50,211 nt of DNA, from IMG/VR virus record IMGVR_UViG_3300021404_000018, positions 1 to 50,211 of that record, one strand, 5' to 3'. The notes under the pieces are model-generated. The model was not told the DNA's origin, made no database searches, and saw only the letters and a program-made list of their open reading frames with translations. Shown piece after piece: positions 1-50,211 of the stretch; position 1 is the first letter of the stretch; each line of letters starts with the position of its first letter. A program made the translations under genes and the position numbers. The stretch comes from a virus. Its lineage: Duplodnaviria > Caudoviricetes.

Positions 1-148
1 GGACGCCAATGGTTTGTGTGGTTTCGTGGTAGCACACCCGAGCCACATTCGAGCTGTCAGGTGTGTCAGTCCACTTCAAATCAGGTTGTGACATAGCCGT
101 CCCCTTGCTGTTGATAGAGCCCACGCTGACGTGGGTTCGACAAACAGT
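1..148. repeat. Terminal direct repeat, copy 1 (assembly circularisation overlap)
   Basis: Identical to 50064-50211 except position 22 (T) versus 50085 (G). It falls inside the KTSC gene and its leader, so it is probably not a biological terminal repeat. Confidence 0.93.
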
Positions 149-151
149 AAG
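104..151 (-). other. Imperfect ~22-bp hairpin, family B copy 1 (RNase III-like substrate?)
   Basis: Plus strand reads CTTGCTGTTGAT...GACAAACAGTAAG. The arms are complementary and homologous to 789-841. Confidence 0.55.
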
Positions 152-152
152 A

Positions 153-181
153 TGAGCCGTTTATAGACATGCTCAGGTCTA
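153..181 (-). ncRNA. H-type pseudoknot motif, family A copy 1
   Basis: Minus strand UAGAC-CUGAGC-AU-GUCUA-UAAACG-GCUCA. Stem1 is UAGAC/GUCUA and stem2 is UGAGC/GCUCA. Repeated at 570-650 and 49206-49233. Confidence 0.6.
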
Positions 182-187
182 AAGACG

Positions 188-448
188 TCAGGCGTCTTCT
201 TGGACGTTCAGCAGTTCCGCGTGATCGACCGCCGCGTCGCTGGTGATGCCCAACGACTCCAAGGTGCAGGTGTCGGGAACGGTCAGGGTGTCATAGTGGA
301 ACCCGTCGCCGTCCGTCCCGAGTTCGCCGCTCTCGGAGTTGTCCTTGGCCGCCAGGGCGTTCACGAAGTCCTCGTTGAACGTGTAGTTGGCCGAGTAGGA
401 CCCATCGCCGCCATCGGAGATGAGAACGAAAAGCTTCTTCGTGATCAT
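188..448 (-). CDS. Hypothetical early protein (86 aa, acidic)
   Basis: ORF with a GGAGA RBS and phage-like codon usage, co-oriented with its neighbours. Confidence 0.75.
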   Translation of the reverse strand: MITKKLFVLISDGGDGSYSANYTFNEDFVNALAAKDNSESGELGTDGDGFHYDTLTVPDTCTLESLGITSDAAVDHAELLNVQEDA

Positions 449-569
449 AGTGGTATCTCCCGATTGAGGACCATTCCTCAGGAGAACACACGCAAAGCAG
501 TCCCGTAGGATATGCTCTCACCTCATCCGCAATGCCGGTGTTGCAAACGTGTGTTCACCTCAAGAAAGG

Positions 570-650
570 TGAGCAGTTTTGCCAACCAACCTGGAGCTAA
601 CCAACGGGGCGGTGTTGGAAGGTCAGAAGGGTATTGCCATGCTCAGGGCA
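570..650 (-). ncRNA. H-type pseudoknot motif, family A copy 2 (with ~55-nt insertion)
   Basis: Minus strand UGCC-CUGAGC-AU-GGCA-[insert]-AAAACU-GCUCA. Stem1 shows a compensatory change relative to the other copies. Confidence 0.55.
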
Positions 651-653
651 CGA

Positions 654-682
654 GTGACGCCCAACAACGGGTGTTGAGCATC
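654..682 (-). other. Conserved hairpin, family C copy 1
   Basis: Minus strand GAUGCUCAAC-loop-GUUGGGCGUCAC forms 10 bp with two G-U pairs. The arms are identical to 49830-49855. Confidence 0.6.
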
Positions 683-788
683 CATGCACGAGTTCCGCTA
701 TGGGGGGACGTAGCTGCCACTCGCACATCACAACTCACACGTCAAAATAGACCCAACCTGCAACAGAGGGGCCAACAGGAGCGACGTG

Positions 789-841
789 CTTGCTGTTGAT
801 GAAGACCAACCAAAGCTGAGTTGATCTTGATAAACGGCAAG
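789..841 (-). other. Imperfect ~22-bp hairpin, family B copy 2
   Basis: Plus strand reads CTTGCTGTTGAT...GATAAACGGCAAG, homologous to 104-151. Confidence 0.55.
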
Positions 842-869
842 AGTGTCCAGATATTTGGACGAAAACACC

Positions 870-899
870 ACGCCACCAGCCCCGAAGGGCCAGTGACGC
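870..899 (-). terminator. C(UUCG)G-capped hairpin 3' of the 234-aa gene (terminator or mRNA stabiliser)
   Basis: Minus strand GCGUCACUGGCCC-UUCG-GGGCUGGUGGCGU, followed only by a weak U tract (GGUGUUUU). Confidence 0.5.
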
Positions 900-912
900 A
901 GCGCTTGCGGTC

Positions 913-1617
913 TTACTTGGACGCTTCGGCGACTTCCAGTTGCGCCTTGGCGAGCTGGTCGCGCGCCTGATAGACGTCCTTGGTGCTGTCGTTCCAGGCC
1001 ATCACCTCGCCCAGCGACTTGTCGAGCCCGTCGAAGAACTCTTCCATCTTGTCCAGATGGATGCCGTCGTAGAAGGGCTTCTTGATGTCCTTCGGACGGG
1101 GCGGCTGACCGGGTTCGAGCAGAGTGTTCTCGATGGCCGCCCGATATTCGCGGATGGCCCGCTCGACCTTGGAGGTCAGGTTGTCGCGGAACACGGGCCG
1201 AACGGCCAGCATTTCCCTCGCAGAGGCGAGGCTGGTGAACGGCGTCGTGTTGGCCTCCTCGATCTTGAAGGGCCGGCGTTCGCCGTCGATGGTGCCGCTG
1301 AGCGTGATGTTGTCGCCCTTCAGTTCCATCGGGCTGAACGCCCGCATCCAAGCGATGAGGCCCTGACGACGGTAGCCCGACTTCGCGTCCACGATATCGA
1401 CGAGAAGACGGCGCATCAGGGACGTGTCGCCGTGCTTGTCGGCGTGCAGAAGGCACTGCACCGCATTGGCGTGAATGCGAGCATCCAGCTTGATCAGGCT
1501 GACACGGATGCCGTCCTGATCCTTCTTGATGACCGACTTCTCCAACAGGGAGGGCAGACCTTCGACAGCCGTGGATTGCACGACGGCCAGTTCGCCTTCA
1601 ACTTGAGCAGTAGTCAT
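913..1617 (-). CDS. Hypothetical early protein (234 aa)
   Basis: Long ORF with strongly biased codons and an AAGGGA RBS. No family recognised. Confidence 0.85.
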   Translation of the reverse strand: MTTAQVEGELAVVQSTAVEGLPSLLEKSVIKKDQDGIRVSLIKLDARIHANAVQCLLHADKHGDTSLMRRLLVDIVDAKSGYRRQGLIAWMRAFSPMELKGDNITLSGTIDGERRPFKIEEANTTPFTSLASAREMLAVRPVFRDNLTSKVERAIREYRAAIENTLLEPGQPPRPKDIKKPFYDGIHLDKMEEFFDGLDKSLGEVMAWNDSTKDVYQARDQLAKAQLEVAEASK

Positions 1618-1643
1618 GATTAGGTTCCCTTATAGGTTCCATC

Positions 1644-1673
1644 CAGCGTTAGTGCTGGGATAACCCGCCGTGA
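1644..1673. repeat. 30-bp inverted repeat, arm 1
   Basis: 26/30 identical to the reverse complement of 1950-1979. Confidence 0.85.
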
Positions 1674-1675
1674 AC

Positions 1676-1927
1676 CTAACTTGCGAGCTTAAGACGCCGC
1701 TTGGGCGCTCTTGCACGACGATCCCGAAGGATCATTTCAGAGATTGTGCGCCCCTCTTGAACATTGAAGGGCTGAAGATGACGTATCGCCACCCAACCCC
1801 CTTTGAGAGGCGAGGGCAGCGATGCGACGAAGAAGTCACAGACACTCTCGGACACGAAAGGCCCGAAGTAGAGTATCTTGGACACTTTGCTGTCTTTGAA
1901 GCCTACGAAGTATTGCGTTGGTTTCAT
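1676..1927 (-). CDS. Hypothetical basic protein (~83 aa) enclosed by the inverted repeat
   Basis: ATG at 1927 preceded by AAAGGTG; the ORF track starts it at GTG 1939. Confidence 0.65.
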   Translation of the reverse strand: MKPTQYFVGFKDSKVSKILYFGPFVSESVCDFFVASLPSPLKGGWVAIRHLQPFNVQEGRTISEMILRDRRARAPKRRLKLAS

Positions 1928-1949
1928 CGCTGTTAACACCTTTCCGGCC

Positions 1950-1979
1950 TCACAGCGAGTTACCGCAGCACTAACGCTG
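1950..1979. repeat. 30-bp inverted repeat, arm 2
   Basis: Partner of 1644-1673. Confidence 0.85.
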
Positions 1980-2083
1980 CGTTCTGACCCATAGGTCCAC
2001 CTGTTCCCAAAAGACTTGGGTAACGGACAGAATTTCCCGGCTGGCCAGCGCTATTCATTCACGGATGCCATTACTGACAGCCG

Positions 2084-2230
2084 CTATTCTACGGCGAATA
2101 GCTTTTCTTGGAGGGTTGCTGCGTCTTCGCTACAGCTTGCTAGTGCTGCGTTGCGAATAGCCCCGATTGCTCTGGCCTGTTCCGGCTCACCCGGACTTAG
2201 ACGGTAATCGAGTACCTCCGACCGACACAT
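2084..2230 (-). CDS. Small hypothetical protein (48 aa, MCRSEVLDYRLSPGEPEQ...)
   Basis: Translated by hand. AGGT RBS before the ATG; below the ORF-track length cutoff. Confidence 0.4.
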   Translation of the reverse strand: MCRSEVLDYRLSPGEPEQARAIGAIRNAALASCSEDAATLQEKLFAVE

Positions 2231-2400
2231 GGTTACCTATCCCATGCATCTCACCAAGGCCCTAACAATGACACTCATTTGCACGGCTATTCGTCTAACC
2301 CGCAGCGATTGCTGAAGGCTTCGACTACTCGCCACACGAGCGTCACCAAAGGTGCGTATGCCCTTGGCCGGGTCCAGAACGGACCTCGTTTCAATATGAG

Positions 2401-2438
2401 ACAGCCCGACGCAACCCCGAAGGGTCACGCCAGTCTGT
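2401..2438 (-). other. C(UUCG)G-capped long hairpin 3' of the first early gene
   Basis: Minus strand ACAGACUGGCGUGACCC-UUCG-GGGUUGCGUCGGGCUGU, with several G-U pairs that form only on the minus strand. Confidence 0.55.
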
Positions 2439-2446
2439 TTTGCCCC

Positions 2447-2713
2447 TTACTTGGAGCCAAAGCGGTTCTTTGTGCCGGGACGTTGCACCTTGAGTTGGCC
2501 GCGAACGACCTTCCCCGGTTTACCACGTCCCTCCCAATAGGCCGGGCGAGGGGTCGCGTAGCCTGACAAGTGAATGACAGGCGACAGCGCGGACCTAACA
2601 CGGCCCTGTTGGAGTTTGCCAACATCGGACGCGTTGCCGTACTCTGCAAGGTCACGCCTAAGCGCGGCTTGCTTCGCTAGCAGACGCCGATGCGGGTTGA
2701 GGCGCTTGGACAT
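2447..2713 (-). CDS. Hypothetical highly basic protein (88 aa), first early gene
   Basis: AAGGAG RBS, directly downstream of the leftward promoter. Confidence 0.7.
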   Translation of the reverse strand: MSKRLNPHRRLLAKQAALRRDLAEYGNASDVGKLQQGRVRSALSPVIHLSGYATPRPAYWEGRGKPGKVVRGQLKVQRPGTKNRFGSK

Positions 2714-2790
2714 GCCAAGGCTCCTTCCGCGAGGGGCTACAGGCGGTCCAAGGGACCTGCCCGACTGGACCTATATGACCCAGTAACATC

Positions 2791-2819
2791 ATCCTACCAG
2801 GGCAGAGGGGCATGGTCAA
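2791..2819 (-). promoter_or_regulatory. Sigma70-type leftward (early) promoter
   Basis: TTGACC-17 nt-TAGGAT with an extended -10 TG. Confidence 0.65.
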
Positions 2820-3030
2820 CGTGAACGTAGGGTGAACATGAGGCATGATCTTGTTATGTTGTTATCGTTTATCGATATGTGGGGGCATATTCATGCTTTG
2901 CGACTCACTCGCAAGTGCATCTGCAACCGGGGGGTGTACGGGGGGGCCATGAAACCGAGGGTTGCAATCACGTTATTTAGGCTGGGTGGGTTGTTACATA
3001 AAAAAGTAAGCGTTCTCGTGTTTTTTGTGC

Positions 3031-40821: not shown

Positions 40822-41563
40822 TGGCGAGTTTCTCCAAGGCGTTTGCGTACGCTTCGACTGTTTGTCCTTCAAGCCCGGGCGCAGTATTGACTTCCAGGAC
40901 ATACAGATTTCCCTTCTTGTCTTCAACGATGTCAACAGCGCCGAAGTCCAGCCCGAGGGCCGCGACTGCGCTGATGGCGAGCTTGTCCCGAGCTTCGCTG
41001 GGTTGAATGTTGTTACGCTGAAAGATGAAACCGTTCGCATGGGAGCGAACCTTCCAAGACAAAGGCTCTTGGTCGGGGTCGCGAACCTTCCGCTGAGTGT
41101 CAATGACCTCAGTCTGAGTTGCGTGAACCCGGAACTCTTTGGTCTTGAAGATGTACTTGGTATAAAGAGGAGCCGTGGGTAGCTCGTCATTCTCTTCAAC
41201 TATAACGATACCATCACCGGAGTGTCCTGTCAAGACATTCCGGACAACAATCGTGTTGCCCTTAGCTTGCCATTCCAGAGCAACCGCCTTGTTCTGGGTC
41301 CACGGAACGGTGTCGATGTCCTCACCAGCGAGAGCTGTGAAAGTGTAAATCTTGTTAGAGGCGATGCCAACGGCGGCACAGTTGTTCAGGACCTTCTTGA
41401 AGGCCATAGTGTTGTTGTCTTTGCCTTTGGTCGTGCCCCAGTTCACCAGAACATCGTCCGGCTTGAAGCTCTTGCCCGTCACAAAACGTCTGAACCCCTC
41501 TCCTTGAGAGAGTTCCTTCGCGCTGTTGGACGGGCGTCCTCCGGTGTAAATCCAAATCTTCAA
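40811..41563 (-). CDS. ATP-grasp peptide ligase (RimK/YheCD-like)
   Basis: NWG, GHSGDGI, EFRVH, LDFGAVDI, YVLEVNTAPGL; TTG start overlaps the upstream TGA. Confidence 0.9.
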   Translation of the reverse strand: MKIWIYTGGRPSNSAKELSQGEGFRRFVTGKSFKPDDVLVNWGTTKGKDNNTMAFKKVLNNCAAVGIASNKIYTFTALAGEDIDTVPWTQNKAVALEWQAKGNTIVVRNVLTGHSGDGIVIVEENDELPTAPLYTKYIFKTKEFRVHATQTEVIDTQRKVRDPDQEPLSWKVRSHANGFIFQRNNIQPSEARDKLAISAVAALGLDFGAVDIVEDKKGNLYVLEVNTAPGLEGQTVEAYANALEKLANAQ

Positions 41564-42438
41564 CGGCGAGACCTTTCCGTCCAGGTGGAGCAGTAAGCGA
41601 GGTCTTGGGCGACCCGCATACCGTCCATCAGCATGTTCTCCATGCCAGGGATCGAGAGATATTTGTGGGAGAACGGGCCAAGGGCCAACTTGAGGAATTC
41701 CCGGGGACCACGCGAGCTGAACTGCCGGATGATCTCGGTGGGGTTGGTGTACGTCTTGGCGTGCTGCTTGAGATAGTCCAGCGTGCCAATCCAGTGCATC
41801 AGACGGCCCTCGTGCGTGGTGCACTCAAGCGACCTGAACTCGATGGACCCGAACTTGGTTAGGGAAGTGAAGTTGATCGAGCTGTAACGTTCGGCATTGC
41901 CGCCGAGTTGGAAGAATTGGTGACCACCCTTGATCGAGTTGGTCAGCATCAAGACCTGACCTAGAGCGTCCTTAGCCCGGAGACAGAAGTTGTTGCCAAC
42001 CCGGTGCTCACCGTTCTGGCTCACGAACAGCTCGTCAAGGATCAGAGCCAGTGTGATGAAGTTGTAGATGGTGCGGAGCTTCTCCGTCCCAAAGTTAACG
42101 TGGACGTGAACGGACGTCCGGTACGAGTTGTACACCTTCACCGTGGGTTGGTTCAGGTAGTCGAACAGCGTGGTGACCGCTTCTCTGACCTTTTCCAACG
42201 GCATCGGAGAACGGCACACGAACTCGTACGCATCGTCGCCGGGCTTCAGTTTGCGCAGCGAGTGGTCGTCGATGATGTTCCAGAAAGCGTCCACGGCGTG
42301 AGTGATGTTGCCGAGGTTCTTGCCCTCCACCTCAACCTCGACGCCGAAGCTGTCAGGGTTGTTGAGAGCTTCCCGCTGGATCGGGATGTGATCGGAAAGT
42401 CGCTGGTTCAAATCCATCAGAGCAGTGTATTGGTGCAT
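41560..42438 (-). CDS. Putative amidoligase (Amidoligase_2, glutamine synthetase-like fold)
   Basis: FGVEVEVEG, DHSLR, YEFV, RTSVHVHVN, RYSSIN, GSIEFR. Confidence 0.88.
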   Translation of the reverse strand: MHQYTALMDLNQRLSDHIPIQREALNNPDSFGVEVEVEGKNLGNITHAVDAFWNIIDDHSLRKLKPGDDAYEFVCRSPMPLEKVREAVTTLFDYLNQPTVKVYNSYRTSVHVHVNFGTEKLRTIYNFITLALILDELFVSQNGEHRVGNNFCLRAKDALGQVLMLTNSIKGGHQFFQLGGNAERYSSINFTSLTKFGSIEFRSLECTTHEGRLMHWIGTLDYLKQHAKTYTNPTEIIRQFSSRGPREFLKLALGPFSHKYLSIPGMENMLMDGMRVAQDLAYCSTWTERSRR

Positions 42439-43041
42439 CTAACCCAATGCCTCGTAGAGGGTTTCCTTGAGATATTCGGCTTGTGGGACCAGAACGACAG
42501 GCGTCTTACCACCCACAATACCGATCCCGTTTGCACGATAATAGAGAGGATACGTCTTGTCCTCAGCCTGATAGCCAAGGGCAAAGTCGCGATGCCAAGC
42601 CGCCGTGTGCGCTTTGCCGTCACGCACTTGCTTCTTAGCTTCCTCGAAAGAGGTGTAGTCGTTACGCAACATACTAACATAGCTCTTGTTAAATTGAAAG
42701 CCCGCCTTCGGGTTCACTCCCCAATCTCCGTTAAAGAACCGGAGTTGCTCGGCCTTAAGACCTTGCTGGTACTGCTTGGCGGGACGTCGGTACCACCACG
42801 TAGCAATTCCGGCATGATTGGCATAGCCGATGTTGTAATCCCGATAGCGGAACTGAGGATCGTGAAGATCAACGATCTCAGATGGCTGGTTCAGAGCCGC
42901 GACGGACAGACGAAACGCCTTAGCATCGTCGTCGTCGTGGAAGGCCGTCTTGACGTAGACTGGTTCGTCCTTGTAGTAGCAGATCGTGCCGACGAACTTG
43001 GCTGTGACGTCGTTCAGATTGTCGAACTTAGGCAGCGGCAT
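42439..43041 (-). CDS. Hypothetical protein within the ligase cluster (200 aa)
   Basis: ORF tightly packed between the two ligase genes. Confidence 0.8.
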   Translation of the reverse strand: MPLPKFDNLNDVTAKFVGTICYYKDEPVYVKTAFHDDDDAKAFRLSVAALNQPSEIVDLHDPQFRYRDYNIGYANHAGIATWWYRRPAKQYQQGLKAEQLRFFNGDWGVNPKAGFQFNKSYVSMLRNDYTSFEEAKKQVRDGKAHTAAWHRDFALGYQAEDKTYPLYYRANGIGIVGGKTPVVLVPQAEYLKETLYEALG

Positions 43042-43864
43042 GGAAAGGCAGCGGCTCCAGGTTCAGATCGCACCAGCCGAATTCTTCCGGCCAGTCCGTC
43101 TTGTTGTTGTCGATGACGTCCCTGGCGATGTCGCCATAGGTGTCCTCGGCCCACAGACCGGCGAAACCATCGGCGATGGCCGTTTGGAGGGTGTTATAGA
43201 CCCAACGCATCAGAGGTTCGCTGTCAAGCCAGCGGTTGGAAAGAACGCGGTACTCCAGGCCGTACGACTTGGGACGGAACGCCCCGGCCTTGCCGTACAG
43301 GGACCGGCGAGTGCCGTCCTTGTCCCAGAACAGGGAGTACATCCCGAGGTAGTAATCGAGCTGCCGAGCGACCTTGCAGCACAGCTTGAAGTGCTCGTGG
43401 TCTTCCGGGTCGAAGCCCTCACCCCAGCCGATGTGAAGATGGCCGCTGGCGGTCCGCATCGGTTCCCCTTGTGGGTCCGGGCGGGGGTTCACGTCCTCGG
43501 TCCAGCCGTTGAAGTCGGGCATACAGCCCAGCTCTTGCGCCGAAGACGGGACCTCGAACTTGAAGTAGTCCGCGTTGAAGCGGGCCACGGGCTCGGCGAC
43601 CACGTTGTAGCCGGGAACCATGTCCACCAGCGATTGGCGAACGGCGTGAATGTGATGAACGAACTCGTCAACGGACGTGGCGGGGTCGATGTTGAACTCC
43701 AGCGCCGTGCCATCGACTTGCACAGCGCCGTAGGGCACCTTGAACGGCTCCCACTTGGTTCCGGGGATGCGATCATGGGCGGAAACGAAGTCACCGTTAT
43801 CCGGGTGACGCATGAAGAGTTCGGGATCAGCGCCCACGAGGACGCGATTGGCAGTCACTTGCAT
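43028..43864 (-). CDS. phiEco32-like COOH-NH2 ligase type 2
   Basis: GADPELF, QVDGTALEFN, GCMPDFN, RTASGHLHIG, RRSLYGKAGAFRPKSYGLEYRVLSN. Confidence 0.92.
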   Translation of the reverse strand: MQVTANRVLVGADPELFMRHPDNGDFVSAHDRIPGTKWEPFKVPYGAVQVDGTALEFNIDPATSVDEFVHHIHAVRQSLVDMVPGYNVVAEPVARFNADYFKFEVPSSAQELGCMPDFNGWTEDVNPRPDPQGEPMRTASGHLHIGWGEGFDPEDHEHFKLCCKVARQLDYYLGMYSLFWDKDGTRRSLYGKAGAFRPKSYGLEYRVLSNRWLDSEPLMRWVYNTLQTAIADGFAGLWAEDTYGDIARDVIDNNKTDWPEEFGWCDLNLEPLPFHAAA

Positions 43865-43873
43865 CGGAGTTCC

Positions 43874-44965
43874 TTATGCAACCCACTTGGTGTATTCGTA
43901 TGTGTCAACATCATTGTAACAATCTTCACAAGCGTAAGGAGTATGTTTGTCGATGTGGTGGCCCATCACCTTGATGAACTCACCCCAATTTTGACCGTTC
44001 GCACCGCAAAAGCAGCAGCCTTCTTGCACCATCTGGCTGAAAGCGTCTTTCTTCAGGACCTTGCCACTGATGTCCTTGTACGGAGGACGAAACTTCTTAG
44101 TCGAAGGGCGGGCCATAAAAGGGATTTCGTTGTCCATGTAGTCGCCATAGGCGTAGTCGGTGGAACGAGTGTCCTTCACACCACGCCAGACGGTCGTTGA
44201 ACCCCAGTTCGCGGAGTGCCAGGTCTGGCCTTTCATCTCCACCCGCTCGGGGCTGTCGAACTGTGTCGCGATGGACTTGGGGATTTTCCACGAGTAGTGA
44301 GTGTCCGCCGTGACACTGAAGATGCCGGTGGCACCCTCCTCGGCGGGGATGAACATCTCCTTGTTCCGGCGCGACATAACGTATTCGAGCATCTTCGCTT
44401 CAGACGCCCAGATCAAAGTGCAGCGATCCTTACTGTAGCAGTAGTGCAAGGGGCGAGCGGAGTTGCGCAGGAAGTTCAGGGTGCCGTCCCGTTTGTCGTA
44501 CCAGATCAGGGCCCAAGCGCCGGCGATGATCTCCAGCGTGGCCTTGGCACCGATATCGTTAATCGATGCGAAGATGGCCTCGCTGTCCGTGCCGTACTTC
44601 TCATAGTCCTTGAGCCGCTTCAAGGCCCAGGAGTCGAGGGTGCCGTTGTGCATCCCCACGACATGGCTGAACTTGAACGGGTGGGCGTTAGCCTCGTTCT
44701 TCTCGCCCACGGTGGCGTAGCGGTTGTGGCCGAACAGAGCCTTGACCGAATTGTTCGTCGCGGTCATCTTGTCATACGCCGCTGTGGCGAACAGCTCGAA
44801 CGGATTGCCCGGCCTCTTGGCCAGCTCAAAGATGTCCTTCTCGCGGCTGATCGAGGCTGCGCCGGTGGAGTGCGTACCACGAACGCTGTCCACCATCAAC
44901 AGTTCAGTGAAAAGGTCTTTCCAGGTGAGGTTGCAGTCGCCTGCAATGCCGACTAGTCCGCACAT
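43874..44965 (-). CDS. Class II (Ntn) glutamine amidotransferase with a C-terminal Zn finger
   Basis: MCGLVG (Cys2), RG.HSTG, GHNRYAT, HNGT, TDSE; CCFCG...CEDC. Confidence 0.92.
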   Translation of the reverse strand: MCGLVGIAGDCNLTWKDLFTELLMVDSVRGTHSTGAASISREKDIFELAKRPGNPFELFATAAYDKMTATNNSVKALFGHNRYATVGEKNEANAHPFKFSHVVGMHNGTLDSWALKRLKDYEKYGTDSEAIFASINDIGAKATLEIIAGAWALIWYDKRDGTLNFLRNSARPLHYCYSKDRCTLIWASEAKMLEYVMSRRNKEMFIPAEEGATGIFSVTADTHYSWKIPKSIATQFDSPERVEMKGQTWHSANWGSTTVWRGVKDTRSTDYAYGDYMDNEIPFMARPSTKKFRPPYKDISGKVLKKDAFSQMVQEGCCFCGANGQNWGEFIKVMGHHIDKHTPYACEDCYNDVDTYEYTKWVA

Positions 44966-45330
44966 TAAAGTTCAGTCCTCAGGTCTTCGAAATAGACGGA
45001 GTAAGGGATATCACCCTTATAGGAAACGACGCCCCACTTACGCACATCACCTTCTTCTTGGTGAATGGCGATTAGTGTACGGGGCAAAGTATTGTCGGCG
45101 TACAGTTTGTTACGCCCCTTCGTGTAAACGATATCGCCGACCTTCGGGATAGGTGGCGGAGCCGGAATGATCTCGTTAATTCGGTTGATGCTAATTGAGT
45201 GCATGAACCGACCAGGAGAGTCACAGTCAATGAAATTGAGCTTCAACGTGTCAAATGAACCCGACTTATCAATATCAGCCACAATGGCATGAAGAATAAC
45301 TTTGTCGCCTACCTTAGGCAGTGGCAACAC
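44965..45330 (-). CDS. Hypothetical protein with two PKVGD (KOW/SH3-like) repeats
   Basis: LPKVGDKV and IPKVGDIV. Confidence 0.65.
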   Translation of the reverse strand: MLPLPKVGDKVILHAIVADIDKSGSFDTLKLNFIDCDSPGRFMHSISINRINEIIPAPPPIPKVGDIVYTKGRNKLYADNTLPRTLIAIHQEEGDVRKWGVVSYKGDIPYSVYFEDLRTEL

Positions 45331-45973
45331 GTTGCGTCTCCTTCTGGTAGTGGCGGATCAGCTCGATGCTGAAGTCCGCAAAACGGGAGCCGGGGATGTA
45401 TTCGGGATGTCCCTGAATGCAAAGAGTGGACGTCTTGGGGTACCAGACGATCTCCGTGTCCTTGTGGTGATCGTCGTAGCGGAACTCGGGGAAGTGAGCA
45501 CGTTCGGCGTCCTTCCGCGTGGCAACATCAGCATAGCCCAGCACGACGCCCTCAACACTGGGGCGCATCATCTGGTGGTGCGTTGACGTCACCTCCATCT
45601 GCTCGCCTGTGGGCAGGAACGTCATGAGGTGCGACTGGCCGTGATTGTTCACGTCCTGCCACAGCGTGCCGCCGTTGAGACAGTTGAGAAGCTGAGCCCC
45701 ACGGCAAATCCCCACCTTGAGAACGGCTGGGTCGTGGAACTTGGTGAACACACCGATCTCAGTGGTGTCCCGCTGAGACTGTTCTTCGGGAATGAAACGG
45801 CTGATGGGCTTCTCGCCGTAAATCTTAGTGCCGATGTCAGCACCACCGTTGAACACGATCACCTCGGCGAGTTCCGGGTTGTCCACCGAAGTGAAGCCCG
45901 CCTCTTCGAGTAGTTCCTTCATGCCAGGGTCGGCACCGAAGCGAGTGATCGAATGAAAGGTGATGCTAGTCAT
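45314..45973 (-). CDS. Class I glutamine amidotransferase (peptidase C26 / PuuD-like)
   Basis: GGADI, GICRGAQ (Cys nucleophile), STHHQ, QGHPE (His-Glu); start reassigned. Confidence 0.9.
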   Translation of the reverse strand: MTSITFHSITRFGADPGMKELLEEAGFTSVDNPELAEVIVFNGGADIGTKIYGEKPISRFIPEEQSQRDTTEIGVFTKFHDPAVLKVGICRGAQLLNCLNGGTLWQDVNNHGQSHLMTFLPTGEQMEVTSTHHQMMRPSVEGVVLGYADVATRKDAERAHFPEFRYDDHHKDTEIVWYPKTSTLCIQGHPEYIPGSRFADFSIELIRHYQKETQRVATA

Positions 45974-47000
45974 CATCGTCGAAGTCAGGGAAGTCGTATT
46001 CATCAATGTCCCAATCCGGGGGTTGAGGAGGTTGAACGGGAGCAGCATCGATCTGCTGTGGGAAAACGGGAGGAATGGCATTAAGGTGAACACCACCAGC
46101 CTGCTGATTGGCGATGATCTGAGCCCACGCACCAGCCAAAGGCTGAGGCATAGGATCAACCGCAGGAGCCGCTCCGACCATCTCGTCGTGAATGGCTTGA
46201 TGAAGAGCCTGCCCAGCTTCAATGTCATAAACGTACTTCTTCATCAAACCAGCCTCAGGCGTGAGCCGCTTGCGAGGCTCGGGCTTGGGCTTCAGCTTGA
46301 TGTCAAAAATCTCACCCACCTGACTGTCAGTCAGACGAGCCAACTTGTAGTGAAGATCAGACTTGCCCCAAATCACATTGGCTGGTGTTGTGTTCCAAGG
46401 TGCGTCCCTGAAACTCTTCACCGTCAGATCGGGTGAACCGGCTAGCAGTTTGTGCCAGTCGGCAGCCGGATCGAACCAGAAATGATTGTGGCACGGGAAC
46501 TCGCGCTCCTTCTTGAAGGGCTTGCCAGCCGTGCTGTACGACAGCAGAAAAGAAAAGAACTCCGGATAGCCCTCTTTGACCAGCTCTCTCCAACGCTCGA
46601 AGAGATACGGATACTCGATGGGCACACGGCTAGCAATGCAGAAGTTGAACAAGACATTCGCCGGCCACTTGTCCAGGTGATCCACCTGAATGTAGTAGTC
46701 GTGTTTGTGCTTCTTCAAAGTGATGAGATCGCCGAACGCCCTGAACGGGCCGTGGATGAGCATCCGAATGTAACGTATACTGATCTCGTCGCGCATCGGC
46801 ATGGCTGTGACCAGATGATCATAACCAGCACTGTGGAACCGCATGTCGGCGTGGCACACGGACGCGAGCCGAAGTTTCGGGGGAATGCCCGTATCTTCAG
46901 ACCAAACAAACCAAGACGAGGGAGCAAGGTCCGTCAAGCTTGGGTAAGAAGCGATTAGTTGAAGTAACTCTTTCTCGGGGGGATTGATTTCGTCTGCCAA
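45966..47000 (-). CDS. Hypothetical protein (344 aa), first gene of the ligase operon
   Basis: TTG start with an AAGAAGG RBS downstream of the promoter; Pro-rich and acidic C-terminus. Confidence 0.8.
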   Translation of the reverse strand: MADEINPPEKELLQLIASYPSLTDLAPSSWFVWSEDTGIPPKLRLASVCHADMRFHSAGYDHLVTAMPMRDEISIRYIRMLIHGPFRAFGDLITLKKHKHDYYIQVDHLDKWPANVLFNFCIASRVPIEYPYLFERWRELVKEGYPEFFSFLLSYSTAGKPFKKEREFPCHNHFWFDPAADWHKLLAGSPDLTVKSFRDAPWNTTPANVIWGKSDLHYKLARLTDSQVGEIFDIKLKPKPEPRKRLTPEAGLMKKYVYDIEAGQALHQAIHDEMVGAAPAVDPMPQPLAGAWAQIIANQQAGGVHLNAIPPVFPQQIDAAPVQPPQPPDWDIDEYDFPDFDDDD

Positions 47001-48552: not shown

Positions 48553-49181
48553 CACTGCCATCCTGGAGCGTTTATGCGAACCAACGTCCGTTTACAGGCC
48601 TCAGGGAACGGTAAAGACTCGTGAAGAAAGCTCACGTTCCCGATGTACGTTTGATGGGCCTCAAGCTGAACCTCAGCGAGACTAGAAAGATCGACCTCAG
48701 AAGCGTCACCGCCGTCATGAATGGGACCATTGAACTCGCCCACAAATCCACGACAGCCCTGAATGTTAGAAGCAAGGATGATGGCCTCGGGCTCCTCGAA
48801 TGTCGCGTCCTCCCAGCGCTCAGTAGCGGCGCTATGGAAGGGTGAACGCCCAGGAGTATGAACGGGCTCAACGGGAATATGACGTGGTGTGTGACGCCCA
48901 CCGCCACCATTATGCATTGACAGCCCCGCGCTCCAATAGCCATCAATATGCACACCCGGACGGCGCTGAGGCTGTCCCGCCTGAACCACACTCTGATCGA
49001 CCATCAGGTACATGCGTTTACCGGTGTCCACGCCCAGGAGCATCTGATCAACAGTGCTCTGCCAACGCCTCAACTCAATCGGGAGGCGGAGTTCCTTCCA
49101 GAACTCAAGCATGTACACCCGTTCATGGGTGAAATGAGGGAAATGAGTGACGATGTTGCCCTCTTTGACACTTGACAGCAT
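48552..49181 (-). CDS. 2-oxoglutarate/Fe(II) dioxygenase-like protein
   Basis: RPGVHIDG (HxD), LHESLP (distal His), RTLVRI (2OG-binding Arg). Confidence 0.72.
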   Translation of the reverse strand: MLSSVKEGNIVTHFPHFTHERVYMLEFWKELRLPIELRRWQSTVDQMLLGVDTGKRMYLMVDQSVVQAGQPQRRPGVHIDGYWSAGLSMHNGGGGRHTPRHIPVEPVHTPGRSPFHSAATERWEDATFEEPEAIILASNIQGCRGFVGEFNGPIHDGGDASEVDLSSLAEVQLEAHQTYIGNVSFLHESLPFPEACKRTLVRINAPGWQ

Positions 49182-49205
49182 GATAAACCCCTATTTTGAA
49201 TGAAG

Positions 49206-49233
49206 TGAGCAGTTTACTGACATGCTCAGGTCG
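49206..49233 (-). ncRNA. H-type pseudoknot motif, family A copy 3
   Basis: Minus strand GAC-CUGAGC-AU-GUC-AGUAAACU-GCUCA, 24 nt upstream of the dioxygenase ATG. Confidence 0.6.
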
Positions 49234-49326
49234 CACGTTTTAGCGTCTTGCTCGTGACGGCACCGATTTTAAGGCATCTGGTGCGACTACCTATCTACGT
49301 CGGCATTACCCGTTACGTGGCGGGAG

Positions 49327-49710
49327 TTACGCCGCCTTGGCGTTGAACTTGGCGGCCAGGGCCACCTTGGACTGCGCCAGATAGTTCTCGATCTCGGTGG
49401 GCGTGGCCACGTTGGTTTCGACGCAGTGGCCGTTGTGCATGGCCCACCAGTGATGGTTCTGGAGCCAGTTGCGCGTGCCGAAGTGGTACATGTCCACGAC
49501 ACGCTCGCCGACCGTCTTGCCCTCGACGTCGAAGGTCTTGACGCTGATGAACAGGTTGGACGGGCCGTTCGATGTGGGCGGTTCCGGGGCCTTGGCGGTC
49601 GCCGGCGTGGTCGTTTCGGTCTTCTGGGTGGGGATGGTGCTGATCTCAGCGCTCGGGGCGGTGCCCTCGATGGTCGTGGTCGCGCTGGCCTTGACTTGCT
49701 TGGTGGTCAT
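49327..49710 (-). CDS. Hypothetical early protein (~127 aa, Thr/Pro-rich N-terminus)
   Basis: Strong codon bias; start at 49710 or 49722. Confidence 0.8.
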   Translation of the reverse strand: MTTKQVKASATTTIEGTAPSAEISTIPTQKTETTTPATAKAPEPPTSNGPSNLFISVKTFDVEGKTVGERVVDMYHFGTRNWLQNHHWWAMHNGHCVETNVATPTEIENYLAQSKVALAAKFNAKAA

Positions 49711-49829
49711 TTTCGTTTCCATAAACTGGATTGGGATTTTCTTGGCGATAACGGGTCAGCAATGCCCGCTCTTCAAAGCAAGTCAGGTTGGAAGGACCCC
49801 CCTCTTTCCCGACGAAAATATGATGCGTT

Positions 49830-49855
49830 GTGACGCCCAACTGGCGTTGAGCATC
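49830..49855 (-). other. Conserved hairpin, family C copy 2
   Basis: GAUGCUCAAC-GCCA-GUUGGGCGUCAC, with arms identical to 654-682. Confidence 0.6.
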
Positions 49856-49884
49856 TCTGAGCCGTTCTAAGGGCTCTTATTTTG

Positions 49885-50157
49885 TTACTTCTCGGCCTTG
49901 ATGGCGAGATAGTTGGAGAATTCCATTTCACTCTCCCAACGAGTGTAAGGGAACGCCTTGACCACTGCATTCAGGTATTTCCCAATGCTAGGGGCGTGGA
50001 CAAGGTTCTCATAGACCTCCTCGGGAGCCCCGAGATAGGAATACAGTCCACCACTGACGAATTGGACGCCAATGGTTTGTGTGGGTTCGTGGTAGCACAC
50101 CCGAGCCACATTCGAGCTGTCAGGTGTGTCAGTCCACTTCAAATCAGGTTGTGACAT
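49885..50157 (-). CDS. KTSC domain protein
   Basis: SSNVARVCY...VQFVSGGLYSYLGAPEEVY..L..APSIGKYLN; AAGGGGA RBS. Confidence 0.88.
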   Translation of the reverse strand: MSQPDLKWTDTPDSSNVARVCYHEPTQTIGVQFVSGGLYSYLGAPEEVYENLVHAPSIGKYLNAVVKAFPYTRWESEMEFSNYLAIKAEK

Positions 50158-50211
50158 AGCCGTCCCCTTGCTGTTGATAGAGCCCACGCTGACGTGGGTT
50201 CGACAAACAGT
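50064..50211. repeat. Terminal direct repeat, copy 2
   Basis: Matches 1-148 with one mismatch. Confidence 0.93.

What the first reader, a model, noticed from the sequence alone, without database searches (positions are those of the whole stretch)
153..181. Three copies of a covarying H-type pseudoknot in early-gene spacers (153-181, 570-650, 49206-49233)
Seen: the minus-strand consensus is [stem1]-CUGAGC-AU-[stem1']-linker-AAAC(U/G)-GCUCA. Stem1 is UAGAC/GUCUA, UGCC/GGCA and GAC/GUC in the three copies, which includes a compensatory A-U to C-G change. The loop UGAGC always pairs with the downstream GCUCA. One copy carries a ~55-nt insertion in the linker. All copies are intergenic, on the transcribed strand and within about 1.5 kb on the circle. 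Inference: a functional RNA module, such as a nuclease roadblock, processing signal, protein-binding site, or small ribozyme or aptamer. I do not recognise it as a named family.
Basis: partly seen in the sequence, partly recalled or inferred. Interest (0 to 1): 0.8.

Follow-up and report, generated by a model that had tools for sequence, protein, structure and literature searches.

The report
Widespread gene-end RNA pseudoknot in phages
The three repeats are real copies of a tiny, very conserved RNA knot that many unrelated phages, and some bacteria, place just behind the ends of genes; it resembles a plant-virus element that stops RNA-degrading enzymes and ribosomes, and it is in no RNA catalogue.

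Summary
Observation confirmed. The window is a complete, circularly permuted phage genome. It holds two canonical copies and one split copy of a ~30-nt H-type pseudoknot on the transcribed (minus) strand.

- **Consensus:** variable 4-5-bp stem 1 closed by C-G; loop C-UGAGC-AU; linker N(U/A)AAAC(U/G); then GCUC(A) pairing with the loop.
- **Catalogue status:** no Rfam hit at the motif.
- **Covariation:** stem 1 covaries heavily. In an unbiased scan for the loop variant UAAGC, 58 of 83 hits had the compensating GCUU and 6 kept GCUC.
- **Placement:** the motif is co-oriented with genes. It sits just after stop codons, with almost no cases nearer than 8 nt to the closing C, which keeps the knot just outside a terminating ribosome. 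It also lies 3-13 nt before tRNAs, and a G-poor tail follows it.
- **Excluded:** no recoding signature and no enrichment of terminators.
- **Closest known:** the coremin / Watson-Crick-coremin xrRNA of eukaryotic RNA viruses. They share the C-G closing pair, a pyrimidine L1 and an AAACU linker. The required second hairpin is absent family-wide, though it is present after window copies 1 and 2.

Best reading (about 0.45): a cis-acting mechanical roadblock or RNA-end cap at cistron ends. The target enzyme is unknown. The same scan found this motif before in two other genomes.

The parts
153..181 (-). Copy 1 of the pseudoknot. S1 181-177/168-164 (UAGAC/GUCUA); L1 C176; S2 175-171/157-153 (UGAGC/GCUCA); L2 A170 U169; L3 163-158 (UAAACG). 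The stop codon of the upstream 86-aa gene (188-190) ends 10 nt before the closing C177.
   Evidence: Sequence read. CM hit at 150-183, 44.3 bits, E 5.5e-10; this copy was in the model's seed alignment. ORFs.
104..152 (-). Imperfect long hairpin that starts 1-2 nt after copy 1. It occupies the position of coremin's second hairpin (hp2) and ends at the Shine-Dalgarno of the KTSC-domain gene.
   Evidence: strand folding: -19 kcal/mol, z -2.24, 4 of 200 shuffles fold as well. Direct repeat D3. KTSC domain.
632..651 (-). Copy 2, 5' half. Hairpin UGCC-C-UGAGC-AU-GGCA: S1 650-647/638-635, loop 646-639.
   Evidence: CM local hit at 632-651, 17.6 bits, E 0.005.
570..580 (-). Copy 2, 3' half. AAAACU (580-575) followed by GCUCA (574-570), 54 nt after the hairpin. 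The partner of the loop is displaced by an insertion in the linker.
   Evidence: CM hit at 567-597, 16.6 bits. Joint hit at 567-653, 20.3 bits, E 0.013. The insert is not more structured than shuffles.
470..570 (-). Long hairpin (23-nt arms 570-548 and 492-470) that starts at the last base of copy 2. It looks like an hp2 or an RNase III-type processing hairpin.
   Evidence: the repeat finder I2. Strand folding: -45 kcal/mol, z -5.02, 0 of 200 shuffles fold as well.
49206..49232 (-). Copy 3. S1 49232-49230/49221-49219 (GAC/GUC); L1 C49229; S2 49228-49224/49210-49206; L2 A49223 U49222; L3 49218-49211 (AGUAAACU). It ends 24 nt before the ATG (49181) of the 209-aa phrog_8970 gene. No hairpin follows it.
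   Evidence: CM hit at 49203-49236, 42.4 bits, E 1.7e-9; this copy was in the model's seed alignment. Downstream fold z +1.22. Gene family.

Best explanation
The motif is a self-contained, ~30-nt H-type RNA pseudoknot of the coremin / luteovirus type.

**Proposed fold**
- A variable stem 1 closed by a conserved C-G pair.
- A one-base pyrimidine L1.
- A 4-5-bp stem 2 (UGAGC/GCUCA).
- An A-rich AAAC(U) linker, presumably lying in the minor groove of stem 1.

**Proposed action**
It acts in cis on the polycistronic message as a compact mechanical roadblock at the end of a cistron. It is placed so that a ribosome stopping at the upstream stop codon just touches it without unwinding it, so it stays folded.

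**Proposed effect**
It halts or slows processive machines on the RNA, such as exoribonucleases, scanning or non-terminated ribosomes, and possibly RNase E-type scanning or Rho. This would define and protect RNA ends and uncouple the stability of neighbouring cistrons and tRNAs.

**Shown versus inferred**
- Shown: the structure (covariation in both stems), the strand, the placement, the wide distribution, and the absence from Rfam.
- Inferred: the A-minor / triple contacts, the roadblock action itself, and which enzyme is stopped and from which side.
For: 1. **Structure.**
   - Stem 1: four pairs covary massively. The covariation score is 0.370 against 0.091 +/- 0.009 in shuffles, and 0 of 500 shuffles reach it. 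Slid controls give 0.047-0.073 (137 sequences).
   - Closing pair: C-G in 127 of 137, with 2 G-C swaps.
   - Stem 2 among model hits: G-C 112 / A-U 4 / G-U 2; G-C 120 / A-U 1; C-G 110 / U-G 6 / U-A 1. No unpaired cell occurs in the four inner pairs.
   - Unbiased test: a scan fixing only the variant loop UAAGC and AAACU gave 112 distinct hits. Of the 83 with stem 1 paired, 58 continue GCUU and 6 continue GCUC.
2. **RNA, sense strand.**
   - Of 138 hits outside heuristic ORFs, the upstream neighbour is a same-strand CDS in 125 and opposite-strand in 6.
   - The downstream neighbour is a same-strand CDS in 105 or tRNA in 15, and opposite-strand in 11.
   - Wobble pairs in stem 2: G-U 11, A-C 0.
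3. **Placement behind stop codons** (distance from the end of the stop to the closing C).
   - 0-7 nt: 4 of 144 phage cases and 5 of 75 bacterial cases.
   - 8-12 nt: 52 of 144 and 31 of 75.
   - With a 4-nt 5' arm, the minimum puts the first base pair about 11 nt from the first P-site base when the stop is in the A site. I recall this as the position of the ribosomal helicase entrance; no call checked it.
4. **Likeness to coremin and its Watson-Crick variant** (PMC6546385, PMC10321173, PMC10520033, read as passages or sections).
   - Shared features: a loop-closing C-G pair that cannot be flipped, a pyrimidine L1, essential A15-A17 C18 U19 in the linker, and GAG/CUC pairing.
   - Those elements stall Xrn1 and scanning ribosomes and stimulate -1 frameshifting.
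   - The Watson-Crick variant keeps its frameshift stimulation without the second hairpin.
5. **Soil metatranscriptome contigs**.
   - None of the 14 laid pieces bridges a motif copy.
   - One piece ends at 573, inside GCUCA of copy 2. Another ends at 632, just after its hairpin.
   - Contig depth drops from 20.3 to 3.3 across copy 2.
6. **tRNA adjacency.** 15 copies end 3-13 nt before a tRNA 5' end. RNase P cutting there would leave the knot at the new 3' end of the upstream message.
7. **Persistence.** Copies are kept at the same syntenic gene ends within phage lineages while the stem 1 sequence changes.
Against: - **Weak stems.** In AT-rich phages stem 1 is mostly A-U pairs, so nearest-neighbour stability is modest. 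A plain exonuclease barrier is normally a strong stem.
- **Unexplained conservation.** A purely mechanical role does not readily explain near-invariance of stem 2, the loops and the linker across phyla. That pattern is also typical of ligand or protein sites.
- **No second hairpin.** The hp2 that coremin needs to stop Xrn1 is not enriched here. A hairpin starts within 3 nt in 77 of 267 cases, against 94, 122 and 113 of 267 in three controls.
- **No common exonuclease.** Bacteria have no Xrn1. By my recollection, not from any call, hosts such as Vibrio and Erwinia also lack RNase J.
- **Many copies are far from a stop.** In 39 of 144 phage cases and 18 of 75 bacterial cases the motif is more than 40 nt from a long ORF's stop. 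This includes 2 of the 3 window copies.
- **Stops inside the knot.** In 8 phage and 8 bacterial cases the loop UGA itself is the stop codon, so the ribosome must unfold the knot.
- **Low copy number in bacteria.** Each of five bacterial genomes gave one match (only 150 first-look candidates were scored per genome). That is odd for a generally useful stabiliser.
- **Direction unresolved.** Contig ends suggest 3' ends at the knot, whereas the coremin analogy predicts a 5'-to-3' block.
- **Contig evidence is weak.** Contigs cannot show true RNA ends.
Confidence: 0.45

Rival explanations
1. It is a specific binding site (aptamer) for a universally conserved partner. The partner could be a small molecule, a ribosomal or RNA-metabolism protein, or an immune signal or defence protein that mobile elements need to sequester. 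The pseudoknot junction would form the pocket.
For: - The conservation pattern is that of small pseudoknot riboswitches: a freely covarying stem 1, with the closing pair, L1, L2, stem 2 and the AAAC(U) linker nearly invariant across very different hosts.
- It sits in early or establishment regions next to DUF932 and DUF3768 genes of mobile elements.
- Phage records carry 4-8 clustered copies, as a sponge would.
- A G-depleted single-stranded tail of about 7 nt follows it.
Against: - There is no consistent downstream gene class. It precedes unrelated genes and tRNAs, and it can lie in a 3' UTR before a terminator.
- No conserved expression platform or flanking sequence exists.
- No protein family is shared by most loci; the maximum is 23 of 120.
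- The window phage lacks DUF932 and DUF3768.
- It matches no riboswitch family in Rfam, even at E up to 10.
Confidence: 0.22
2. It is a processing (punctuation) signal. On this view the knot is a minimal tRNA-like or otherwise recognisable structure that a universal endonuclease, such as RNase P, cuts at or next to, separating cistrons.
For: - 15 copies sit 3-13 nt before tRNA genes, like a further member of a tRNA array.
- Stem 2 GCUC/GAGC followed by A resembles the commonest tRNA D-stem, and a coaxial 9-10-bp stack with a single-stranded A-led tail resembles an acceptor mimic. Both comparisons are my recollection, not a test.
- RNA contigs break at the motif.
Against: - CCA does not follow GCUCA more often than composition predicts. 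I counted about 11 of 137 by eye on the rows, against about 6% expected from the frequencies.
- One contig reads through the loop of copy 2 (record 7).
- ARAGORN was run, but its calls were never compared with the motif positions, so whether it calls any copy tRNA-like is not tested.
Confidence: 0.1
3. It is a recoding or termination-modulating signal. The knot, lodged at the ribosome entrance when the stop codon is decoded, would promote read-through or frameshifting, or would tune termination and re-initiation.
For: - Spacing from the stop codon peaks sharply at 8-9 nt.
- The architecture is that of luteoviral frameshift knots, and coremin-type knots give up to about 30% -1 frameshifting in vitro (PMC10321173, passages).
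- In 16 cases the stop is the loop UGA, preceded by UCC in the tiny-ORF examples.
Against: - Of 107 non-redundant cases with a stop 7-14 nt upstream, none has an X XXY YYZ heptamer before the stop.
- All three frames close quickly after the stop: median 8, 3 and 6 codons.
- Many copies are far from any stop or lie before tRNAs.
Confidence: 0.05
4. It is a DNA-level element: a protein operator made of inverted TGAGC/GCTCA half-sites, or a folded single-strand recombination or priming site of gene cassettes.
For: - TGAGC-N16-GCTCA is an inverted repeat two helical turns apart.
- A related ATGCTCA word occurs in the other orientation nearby.
- The element follows ORFs much as integron attC sites do (from my knowledge). 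It occurs beside DUF932 and DUF3768, which by my recollection are typical of plasmid leading regions (one search shows only the domains).
Against: - Stem 1 varies freely in sequence but stays complementary. An operator would not need that.
- Orientation follows the gene strand in about 95% of cases.
- G-U wobbles occur 11 times against 0 A-C in stem 2.
- The linker tolerates 3-11-nt changes, and a 54-nt insert in copy 2.
- Gene order around the copies is conserved rather than shuffled.
Confidence: 0.04

Closest known systems
Coremin motif (xrRNA-C) and its Watson-Crick variant (xrRNA-WCC) of plant, fungal and invertebrate RNA viruses (Dilweg et al. 2019 PMC6546385; 2023 PMC10321173, PMC10520033)
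   Same: - A small 3-5-bp first hairpin whose loop-closing pair is C-G and cannot be flipped.
- The first loop base is a pyrimidine that acts as L1.
- After about two variable bases comes an essential A-A-A-C-U stretch (A15-A17, C18, U19 in their numbering).
- The loop pairs with the sequence after the linker, GAG/CUC(A) in the Watson-Crick variant.
- Candidates with loops of 5-8 nt were seen in nature.
- Both occur in 3' UTRs and intergenic regions, often in several copies.
- All of this comes from passages read, compared.
   Different: - The loop here is 8 nt (C-UGAGC-AU), not YGAD or YGNNAD.
- Stem 2 is 4-5 bp, and its 3' strand starts after the U, not on C18-A20.
- A 2-nt L2 is present.
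- The second hairpin required for Xrn1 resistance is not enriched, although it follows window copies 1 and 2.
- The hosts are bacteria, which have no Xrn1, and the carriers are DNA phages and bacterial chromosomes.
- No functional assay exists.
Luteoviral -1 frameshift pseudoknots (BWYV, PLRV type)
   Same: - A compact H-type knot of about 28-30 nt with a 1-nt L1 cytosine and an A-rich linker ending in AAAC.
- It works as a mechanical obstacle to the ribosome.
- Source: description in PMC10321173, plus my recollection of the BWYV structure.
   Different: - It is not preceded by a slippery heptamer.
- No frame stays open through it.
- It sits after the stop codon, not inside an overlap.
preQ1-I / SAM-II type pseudoknot riboswitches
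   Same: - Small size and H-type topology.
- A variable P1, with a conserved junction and an A-rich tail.
- This comparison is from my recollection.
   Different: - No Rfam match at E up to 10.
- No associated gene class.
- The Shine-Dalgarno sequence is not part of the fold.
- It lies behind genes rather than in front of a regulated gene.
REP elements and T7-type intercistronic RNase III hairpins (functional analogues)
   Same: - Intercistronic or 3' structures, co-oriented with genes, that set segmental mRNA stability.
- For REP elements, closeness to the stop codon matters to the ribosome.
- This comparison is from my recollection.
   Different: - Those are long, stable hairpins that are species-specific in sequence and have no pseudoknot.
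- This is a 30-nt knot with a nearly universal sequence, and each of five bacterial genomes gave one match.

Membership tests
Coremin / xrRNA-C (incl. xrRNA-WCC) | First hairpin of 3-5 bp with a C-G loop-closing pair (U-A tolerated, G-C not) | tested here: met
   Stem 1 has 4-5 bp. The closing pair is C-G in 127 of 137 and 120 of 122. The feature is taken from PMC6546385 passages.
Coremin / xrRNA-C (incl. xrRNA-WCC) | Loop 1 follows YGAD (4 nt) or YGNNAD (6 nt) | tested here: not met
   The loop is 8 nt, C-U-G-A-G-C-A-(U/C/A). It starts with a pyrimidine and ends A-N, but G is third rather than second, and C occurs at the last place.
Coremin / xrRNA-C (incl. xrRNA-WCC) | Conserved spacer with essential A15-A17, C18, U19 about two bases after hairpin 1 | tested here: met
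   AAA is invariant, C is present in at least 90% and U is the majority base, 1-2 (up to 8) bases after stem 1.
Coremin / xrRNA-C (incl. xrRNA-WCC) | Loop-spacer (pseudoknot) interaction | tested here: met
   Compensatory changes in 3 of 5 stem-2 pairs. 58 of 83 UAAGC loops are followed by GCUU. The register differs from that of xrRNA-WCC.
Coremin / xrRNA-C (incl. xrRNA-WCC) | Second hairpin directly after the spacer, required for Xrn1 resistance | tested here: not met
   A hairpin starts within 3 nt in 77 of 267 cases, against 94, 122 and 113 of 267 in controls. It is present after window copies 1 and 2 (z -2.24 and -5.02) and absent after copy 3.
Coremin / xrRNA-C (incl. xrRNA-WCC) | Stalls a 5'-3' exoribonuclease or ribosomes in assays | not testable with these tools
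   Needs RNase J1 / Xrn1 digestion, toeprinting and frameshift reporters.
Any Rfam 15 family | Score at or above the family's gathering threshold | tested here: not met
   0 matches in the whole window. Nothing at the motif at E up to 10 in 1-1000 and 49100-50000.
Programmed -1 frameshift / read-through stimulator | Slippery heptamer or leaky stop 5-9 nt upstream, and an open extension frame | tested here: not met
   0 of 107 cases have X XXY YYZ before the stop. Median extensions are 8, 3 and 6 codons.
Intrinsic terminator | G+C-rich hairpin followed at once by a U-run | tested here: not met
   The motif has no U-run. The tail is G-poor, with C and U mixed. Terminator-like sites within 120 nt downstream occur in 6 of 145 viral and 4 of 65 bacterial cases. 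The filter in that call dropped the 3-bp-stem group, which does carry terminators.
Riboswitch (pseudoknot classes) | Aptamer upstream of a coherent gene set, with an expression platform | tested here: not met
   Neighbouring genes are heterogeneous, the flanks are not conserved, and the motif is anchored to the upstream stop. Ligand binding itself was not testable.

The most novel reading that the evidence does not exclude
This is the first prokaryotic counterpart of the eukaryotic-virus xrRNA / coremin class. On this reading it is a protein-free, knot-like RNA roadblock shared, by descent or by convergence on one minimal fold, between DNA phages, mobile elements, bacteria and RNA viruses of plants, fungi and invertebrates. 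It would be used to sculpt polycistronic messages by stopping processive enzymes and ribosomes at gene ends. A bolder variant that the data do not exclude: the clustered copies in early transcripts act as an RNA sponge for a conserved host factor or immune signal.
Probability: 0.3. Interest if true: 0.85.

Novelty: new variant of a known kind. Interest (0 to 1): 0.75.

Why it matters
- **Scale.** It has apparently escaped cataloguing: there is no Rfam hit, and full-text searches found no paper.
- **If it is a roadblock.** It would give bacteria and phages an equivalent of viral exoribonuclease-resistant RNAs. It would explain how phages tune the stability of single cistrons and tRNA precursors inside long early transcripts. 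It would also provide a portable, tiny insulator or stabiliser part for synthetic operons.
- **Link to coremin.** The likeness makes a long-standing question directly testable, namely what the minimal determinants of a directional RNA roadblock are. More than 250 natural variants are available as a mutational data set.
- **If it is a binding site.** The conserved partner would be of broad interest.

Tried and rejected
**Checks that found nothing or argued against a reading**
- **Rfam:** no family at the gathering threshold or at E up to 10.
- **Close relatives of the window:** DNA search against phage records found only an unrelated 75-nt match. Twelve loci encoding relatives of the gene downstream of copy 3 gave no model hit, so the motif does not travel with that gene.
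- **Promoter idea:** no conserved flank. -10-like words occur in 20 of 145 cases upstream and 12 of 145 downstream.
- **Terminator idea:** not enriched. The first version of my terminator finder was too strict and was replaced. The stem filter excluded the 3-bp-stem bacterial group that visibly carries terminators.
- **Recoding:** rejected.
- **Second hairpin family-wide:** rejected.
- **Shared partner protein:** none. DUF932 is often the upstream gene: 20 of 23 members of that cluster are followed by the motif, in one syntenic lineage, plus bacterial loci. It is absent from the window. The DUF3768 search of the window is uninformative, because its control rang nowhere.
- **boxA / nut-like reading of UGCUC:** dropped, because stem-2 variants change that word in a compensatory way.
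- **Ribozyme:** nothing points to it. The motif has no conserved partner strands beyond 30 nt.
- **Tiny-peptide family:** no NCBIfam match.
- **Staphylococcus matches:** they cover only the first 25 query bases inside annotated genes, so I treat them as chance.
- **Metatranscriptome:** parts of the stretch without cover (1-190, 462-572, 2776-3000) are not used as evidence.

**Literature**
- Full-text searches for the motif words, for DUF932/DUF3768 with RNA motif, and for pseudoknot + bacteriophage + tRNA terms found no description of this element.
- One preprint on noncoding clusters was searched for terms and does not mention it.
- Supplements were closed. Catalogues of candidate phage RNAs that exist only as supplementary tables could hold it.
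- PMC11702639 was seen as outline and abstract only and concerns another xrRNA class.
Full report
**What is in the window.**
- The 50,211-nt window is a complete phage genome. Its ends overlap by 148 nt with one mismatch, and CheckV rates it 100% complete.
- Structural genes lie on the plus strand at about 3.2-26.9 kb. They include the terminase, a P22-like portal and the major head protein.
- A long minus-strand block runs from about 2.85 kb through the window ends down to 27.2 kb. It includes a family A DNA polymerase, a DnaB-type helicase, endonuclease I, a ribonucleotide reductase, ThyX and an amidoligase/GATase cluster.
- I found no phage RNA polymerase among the ORFs I scanned.
- The three sites of the finding lie in spacers of the first 3.7 kb of the minus-strand block.
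  - Copies 1 and 3 are canonical.
  - In copy 2, a 54-nt insertion in the linker separates the hairpin from its downstream partner. The insert is not itself structured (z -0.22).

**The motif is not a chance repeat of this genome but a very widespread family.**
  - Of the 129 matches, 91 had the same 6-nt gap, which chance would not give.
  - The bases flanking the fixed words were complementary in nearly all.
- An alignment of 137 copies gave the consensus N4-C-C-UGAGC-A-U-G-N4-(N)-(U/A)AAAC-(U/G)-GCUC-A.
- For the four inner stem-1 pairs, all four Watson-Crick types occur at the three variable pairs. The covariation score is 0.370 against 0.091 in shuffles (0 of 500 reach it) and 0.05-0.07 when the partner is slid.
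- The pair closing the loop is C-G in 127 of 137 copies.
- I built a covariance model with stem 1 only.
  - In the window it finds copies 1 and 3 at E about 1e-9 (both were in its seed alignment).
  - It finds the two halves of copy 2 at E 0.005-0.01.

**Stem 2 is real.**
- My first scan fixed both strands of stem 2, so it could not test that stem.
- Lower-scoring model hits in the fetched loci showed variants: UAAGC with GCUU (8), UGAAC with GUUCA, UGAGU with ACUCA, and many U-G wobbles. There was no unpaired cell in the four inner pairs.
- I then ran an unbiased test: a scan for CCTAAGCATG-N5-AAACT with nothing specified after it.
  - It gave 112 distinct hits.
  - Of the 83 whose stem 1 pairs, 58 continue GCTT (compensating) and 6 continue GCTC. 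Of the other 29, 16 continue GCTT.
- G-U wobbles outnumber A-C mismatches 11 to 0 in stem 2, and 10 to 4 or 16 to 7 in stem 1. So the fold belongs to the sense strand.

**Where it sits.**
- *Orientation.* Of 165 copies found by a relaxed pattern, 138 lie outside my heuristic ORFs.
  - The upstream neighbour is a same-strand gene in 125, against 6 opposite.
  - The downstream neighbour is a same-strand gene in 105 or a same-strand tRNA in 15, against 11 opposite.
- *Copy number.*
  - Five viral records carry 4-8 copies each, clustered within a few kb on one strand.
  - Three cultured phage genomes carry one each: Paracoccus phage ParMal1, Mycobacterium phage Labelle and Lentibacter phage ICBM3.
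  - Synechococcus phages S-EIVl and S-RIM4 also have it, in spacers between hypothetical genes.
- *Flanks.* They are not conserved, with one exception: the 7 nt after GCUCA are depleted of G, at 3-10% against 21-22% background, in both viral and bacterial sets.
- *The anchor is the upstream stop codon.* I measured the distance from the end of the stop to the closing C, in non-redundant sets.
  - It is almost never 0-7 nt: 4 of 144 phage cases and 5 of 75 bacterial cases.
  - It peaks at 8-9 nt: 28 of 144 and 23 of 75.
  - It then tails off.
  - The distance to the next start is broad.
- With a 4-nt 5' arm, the minimum leaves 4 nt between stop and stem. The first base pair then lies about 11 nt from the first P-site base of a terminating ribosome. 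That is where the ribosomal helicase begins to unwind; this figure is my recollection of the literature, not a call.
- So the knot is packed as tightly behind the gene as it can be without being unfolded, or without blocking termination.
- A separate class uses the loop UGA as the stop: 8 phage and 8 bacterial cases.

**Not only phages.**
- The strict 20-base pattern occurs in 98 loci of one-genome-per-species bacterial contigs (596 Gb). About a quarter of the rows shown are Saccharibacteria or other Patescibacteria. Others include Nocardia, Nostoc, Planomicrobium and many MAGs.
- The same pattern hits the 120-locus limit in the far smaller viral set.
- Five bacterial genomes gave one match each (only 150 first-look candidates were scored per genome).
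- Neighbours include DUF3768 and DUF932 genes, a histidyl-tRNA synthetase and an SNF2 helicase.
- At least 14 species from several phyla carry a stand-alone tiny gene.
  - It has its own promoter-like words and a strong Shine-Dalgarno sequence.
  - It encodes 18-23 codons with a conserved ..P-[RH]-x-A-H-C-x-x-[GC]-[CG].. peptide.
  - Its stop is the loop UGA, or lies one base before the closing C.
  - In many of them an intrinsic terminator follows.
- In one phage lineage the motif follows DUF932 (20 of 23 genes), two small genes and, in another lineage, Hsp20. These are conserved syntenic positions, while stem 1 changes.
- The window has no DUF932. The DUF3768 search of the window is uninformative because its control rang nowhere.

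**What it is not.**
- There is no Rfam family.
- Recoding is unlikely: 0 of 107 cases have a slippery heptamer, and all frames close within a median of 3-8 codons.
- Terminators are not enriched.
- There is no shared partner protein.
- There is no promoter signal.

**RNA evidence (weak).**
- Three soil metatranscriptome runs hold the stretch as assembled contigs. I laid them on window 1-3000.
- The pieces are 1982-2775, 573-1640 and 191-461 (X1); 1917-2770, 1738-1939, 944-1579, 644(632)-810 and 218-379 (X2); short pieces in X3; and four unlike fragments.
- No piece bridges a copy.
- One piece ends at 573, inside the GCUCA of copy 2. One ends at 632, just after its hairpin.
- Contig depth falls from 20.3 to 3.3 across copy 2.
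- This fits RNA 3' ends at the knot. However, contigs cannot prove ends, and DNA carry-over is not excluded.

**Comparison with what is known.**
- Two earlier reports of this same scan, on other genomes, had reached a 'coremin-like gene-end pseudoknot' reading. I took this as a lead and read the sources.
- In BNYVV-type coremin (PMC6546385 passages; PMC10520033 sections 3 and 11):
  - The first hairpin has 3-5 bp.
  - The loop-closing pair is C-G; U-A is tolerated, and G-C kills function.
  - The loop is YGAD or YGNNAD.
  - The spacer is U13 U14 A15 A16 A17 C18 U19 A20 C21, with A15-A20 essential.
  - A second hairpin follows directly and is required to stall Xrn1.
- The Watson-Crick variant pairs loop GAG with spacer CUC(A). 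It has a one-base L1 that cannot be changed. It keeps about 30% -1 frameshift stimulation without the second hairpin (PMC10321173 passages).
- The phage motif shares the C-G closing pair, the pyrimidine L1, the two-variable-bases-then-AAACU linker and a GAG/CUC core of stem 2.
- It differs in several ways.
  - The loop is 8 nt and there is a 2-nt L2.
  - Stem 2 is 4-5 bp in a shifted register.
  - Family-wide it lacks the second hairpin (77 of 267 against 94-122 of 267 in controls).
- In this window, copies 1 and 2 are each abutted within 1-2 nt by a significant hairpin (z -2.24 and -5.02), and copy 3 is not.
- I therefore do not file it as a coremin member. I call it a new prokaryotic variant of that kind of small roadblock pseudoknot.

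**Mechanism and its uncertainty.**
- My best reading (0.45) is a cis-acting roadblock or end cap at cistron ends.
- For a 5'-to-3' block speak the coremin analogy and the ribosome-exclusion spacing.
- For 3'-end protection speak the contig ends and the position 3-13 nt before tRNAs. RNase P cutting there would otherwise expose the upstream message.
- Against a purely mechanical role stand three points: the weak A-U-rich stems in AT-rich phages, the near-universal sequence of stem 2 and the loops, and the low copy number in bacteria.
- These points keep a specific binding-site reading alive (0.22). Processing, recoding and DNA-level readings are less likely.

**Verdict.** The element is a real, widespread, uncatalogued RNA family. 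This scan had seen it before on two other genomes.

Noticed in passing
bacterial loci L151, L154, L168, L185, L194, L198, L204, L229, L156, L161, L182, L197, L211, L219 (and L133/L140/L142/L191 with a related 21-aa peptide 34 nt upstream): These loci carry a stand-alone tiny gene of 18-23 codons. It has a strong Shine-Dalgarno sequence, and most have -35/-10-like words. It encodes a conserved His/Cys peptide (..P-[RH]-x-A-H-C-x-x-[GC]-[CG]..). Its stop is the UGA inside the pseudoknot loop, or lies one base before the knot, and a terminator often follows. Synonymous differences between phyla suggest that it is translated. It has no NCBIfam match.
   Followed up: partly
viral loci such as L093, L099, L067, L039, L068; bacterial L176, L217, L143, L213: DUF932 genes are very often the gene just before a copy: 20 of 23 in one phage lineage, and also in bacterial MAGs at exactly 8 nt. 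DUF3768 genes of Patescibacteria likewise. Both families have no known function. The window lacks DUF932; the DUF3768 search of the window had a silent control.
   Followed up: partly
family-wide, 7 nt after GCUCA: G is depleted to 3-10% (background 21-22%) in the first 7 bases after the motif, in both the viral and bacterial sets. I have no tested explanation.
   Followed up: partly
window 104-151 and 789-841 (minus strand): A second repeated element: two related long imperfect hairpins that share UCAACAGCAAG. One abuts copy 1 and reaches the Shine-Dalgarno of the KTSC gene.
   Followed up: partly
window about 655-690 and about 49825-49866 (minus strand): A third repeated word: GAUGCUCAAC followed by a small GC-rich hairpin (..GCC..GGGCGUCAC). 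It occurs directly upstream of copy 2 and after the KTSC gene. The second site is preceded by AACGGCUCA, which resembles a 3' half of the motif.
   Followed up: no
window 470-570 (minus strand): A very stable 100-nt hairpin with 23-nt arms (-45 kcal/mol, z -5.0) directly after copy 2. It looks like a T7-style RNase III processing site, and RNA contig depth drops across this spacer.
   Followed up: partly
window 1644-1673 and 1950-1979: A 30-nt inverted repeat (87% complementary) brackets the 87-aa ORF 1676-1939. RNA contigs of two runs break near 1640 and 1982.
   Followed up: no
window 643 (loop A of copy 2): One metatranscriptome contig (X2, depth 16.6) lacks this single base, 11 letters from its end. 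It could be an assembly or reverse-transcription error at the structure, or a strain variant.
   Followed up: no
window 1-148 and 50064-50211: A terminal 148-nt overlap with one mismatch. The record is a circularly closed or terminally redundant genome.
   Followed up: yes
window 41560-46228 (minus strand): A cluster of amidoligase, COOH-NH2 ligase, class-II glutamine amidotransferase and peptidase C26-like genes, next to ThyX and a HAD domain of 'Swiss Army Knife' RNA repair proteins.
   Followed up: no
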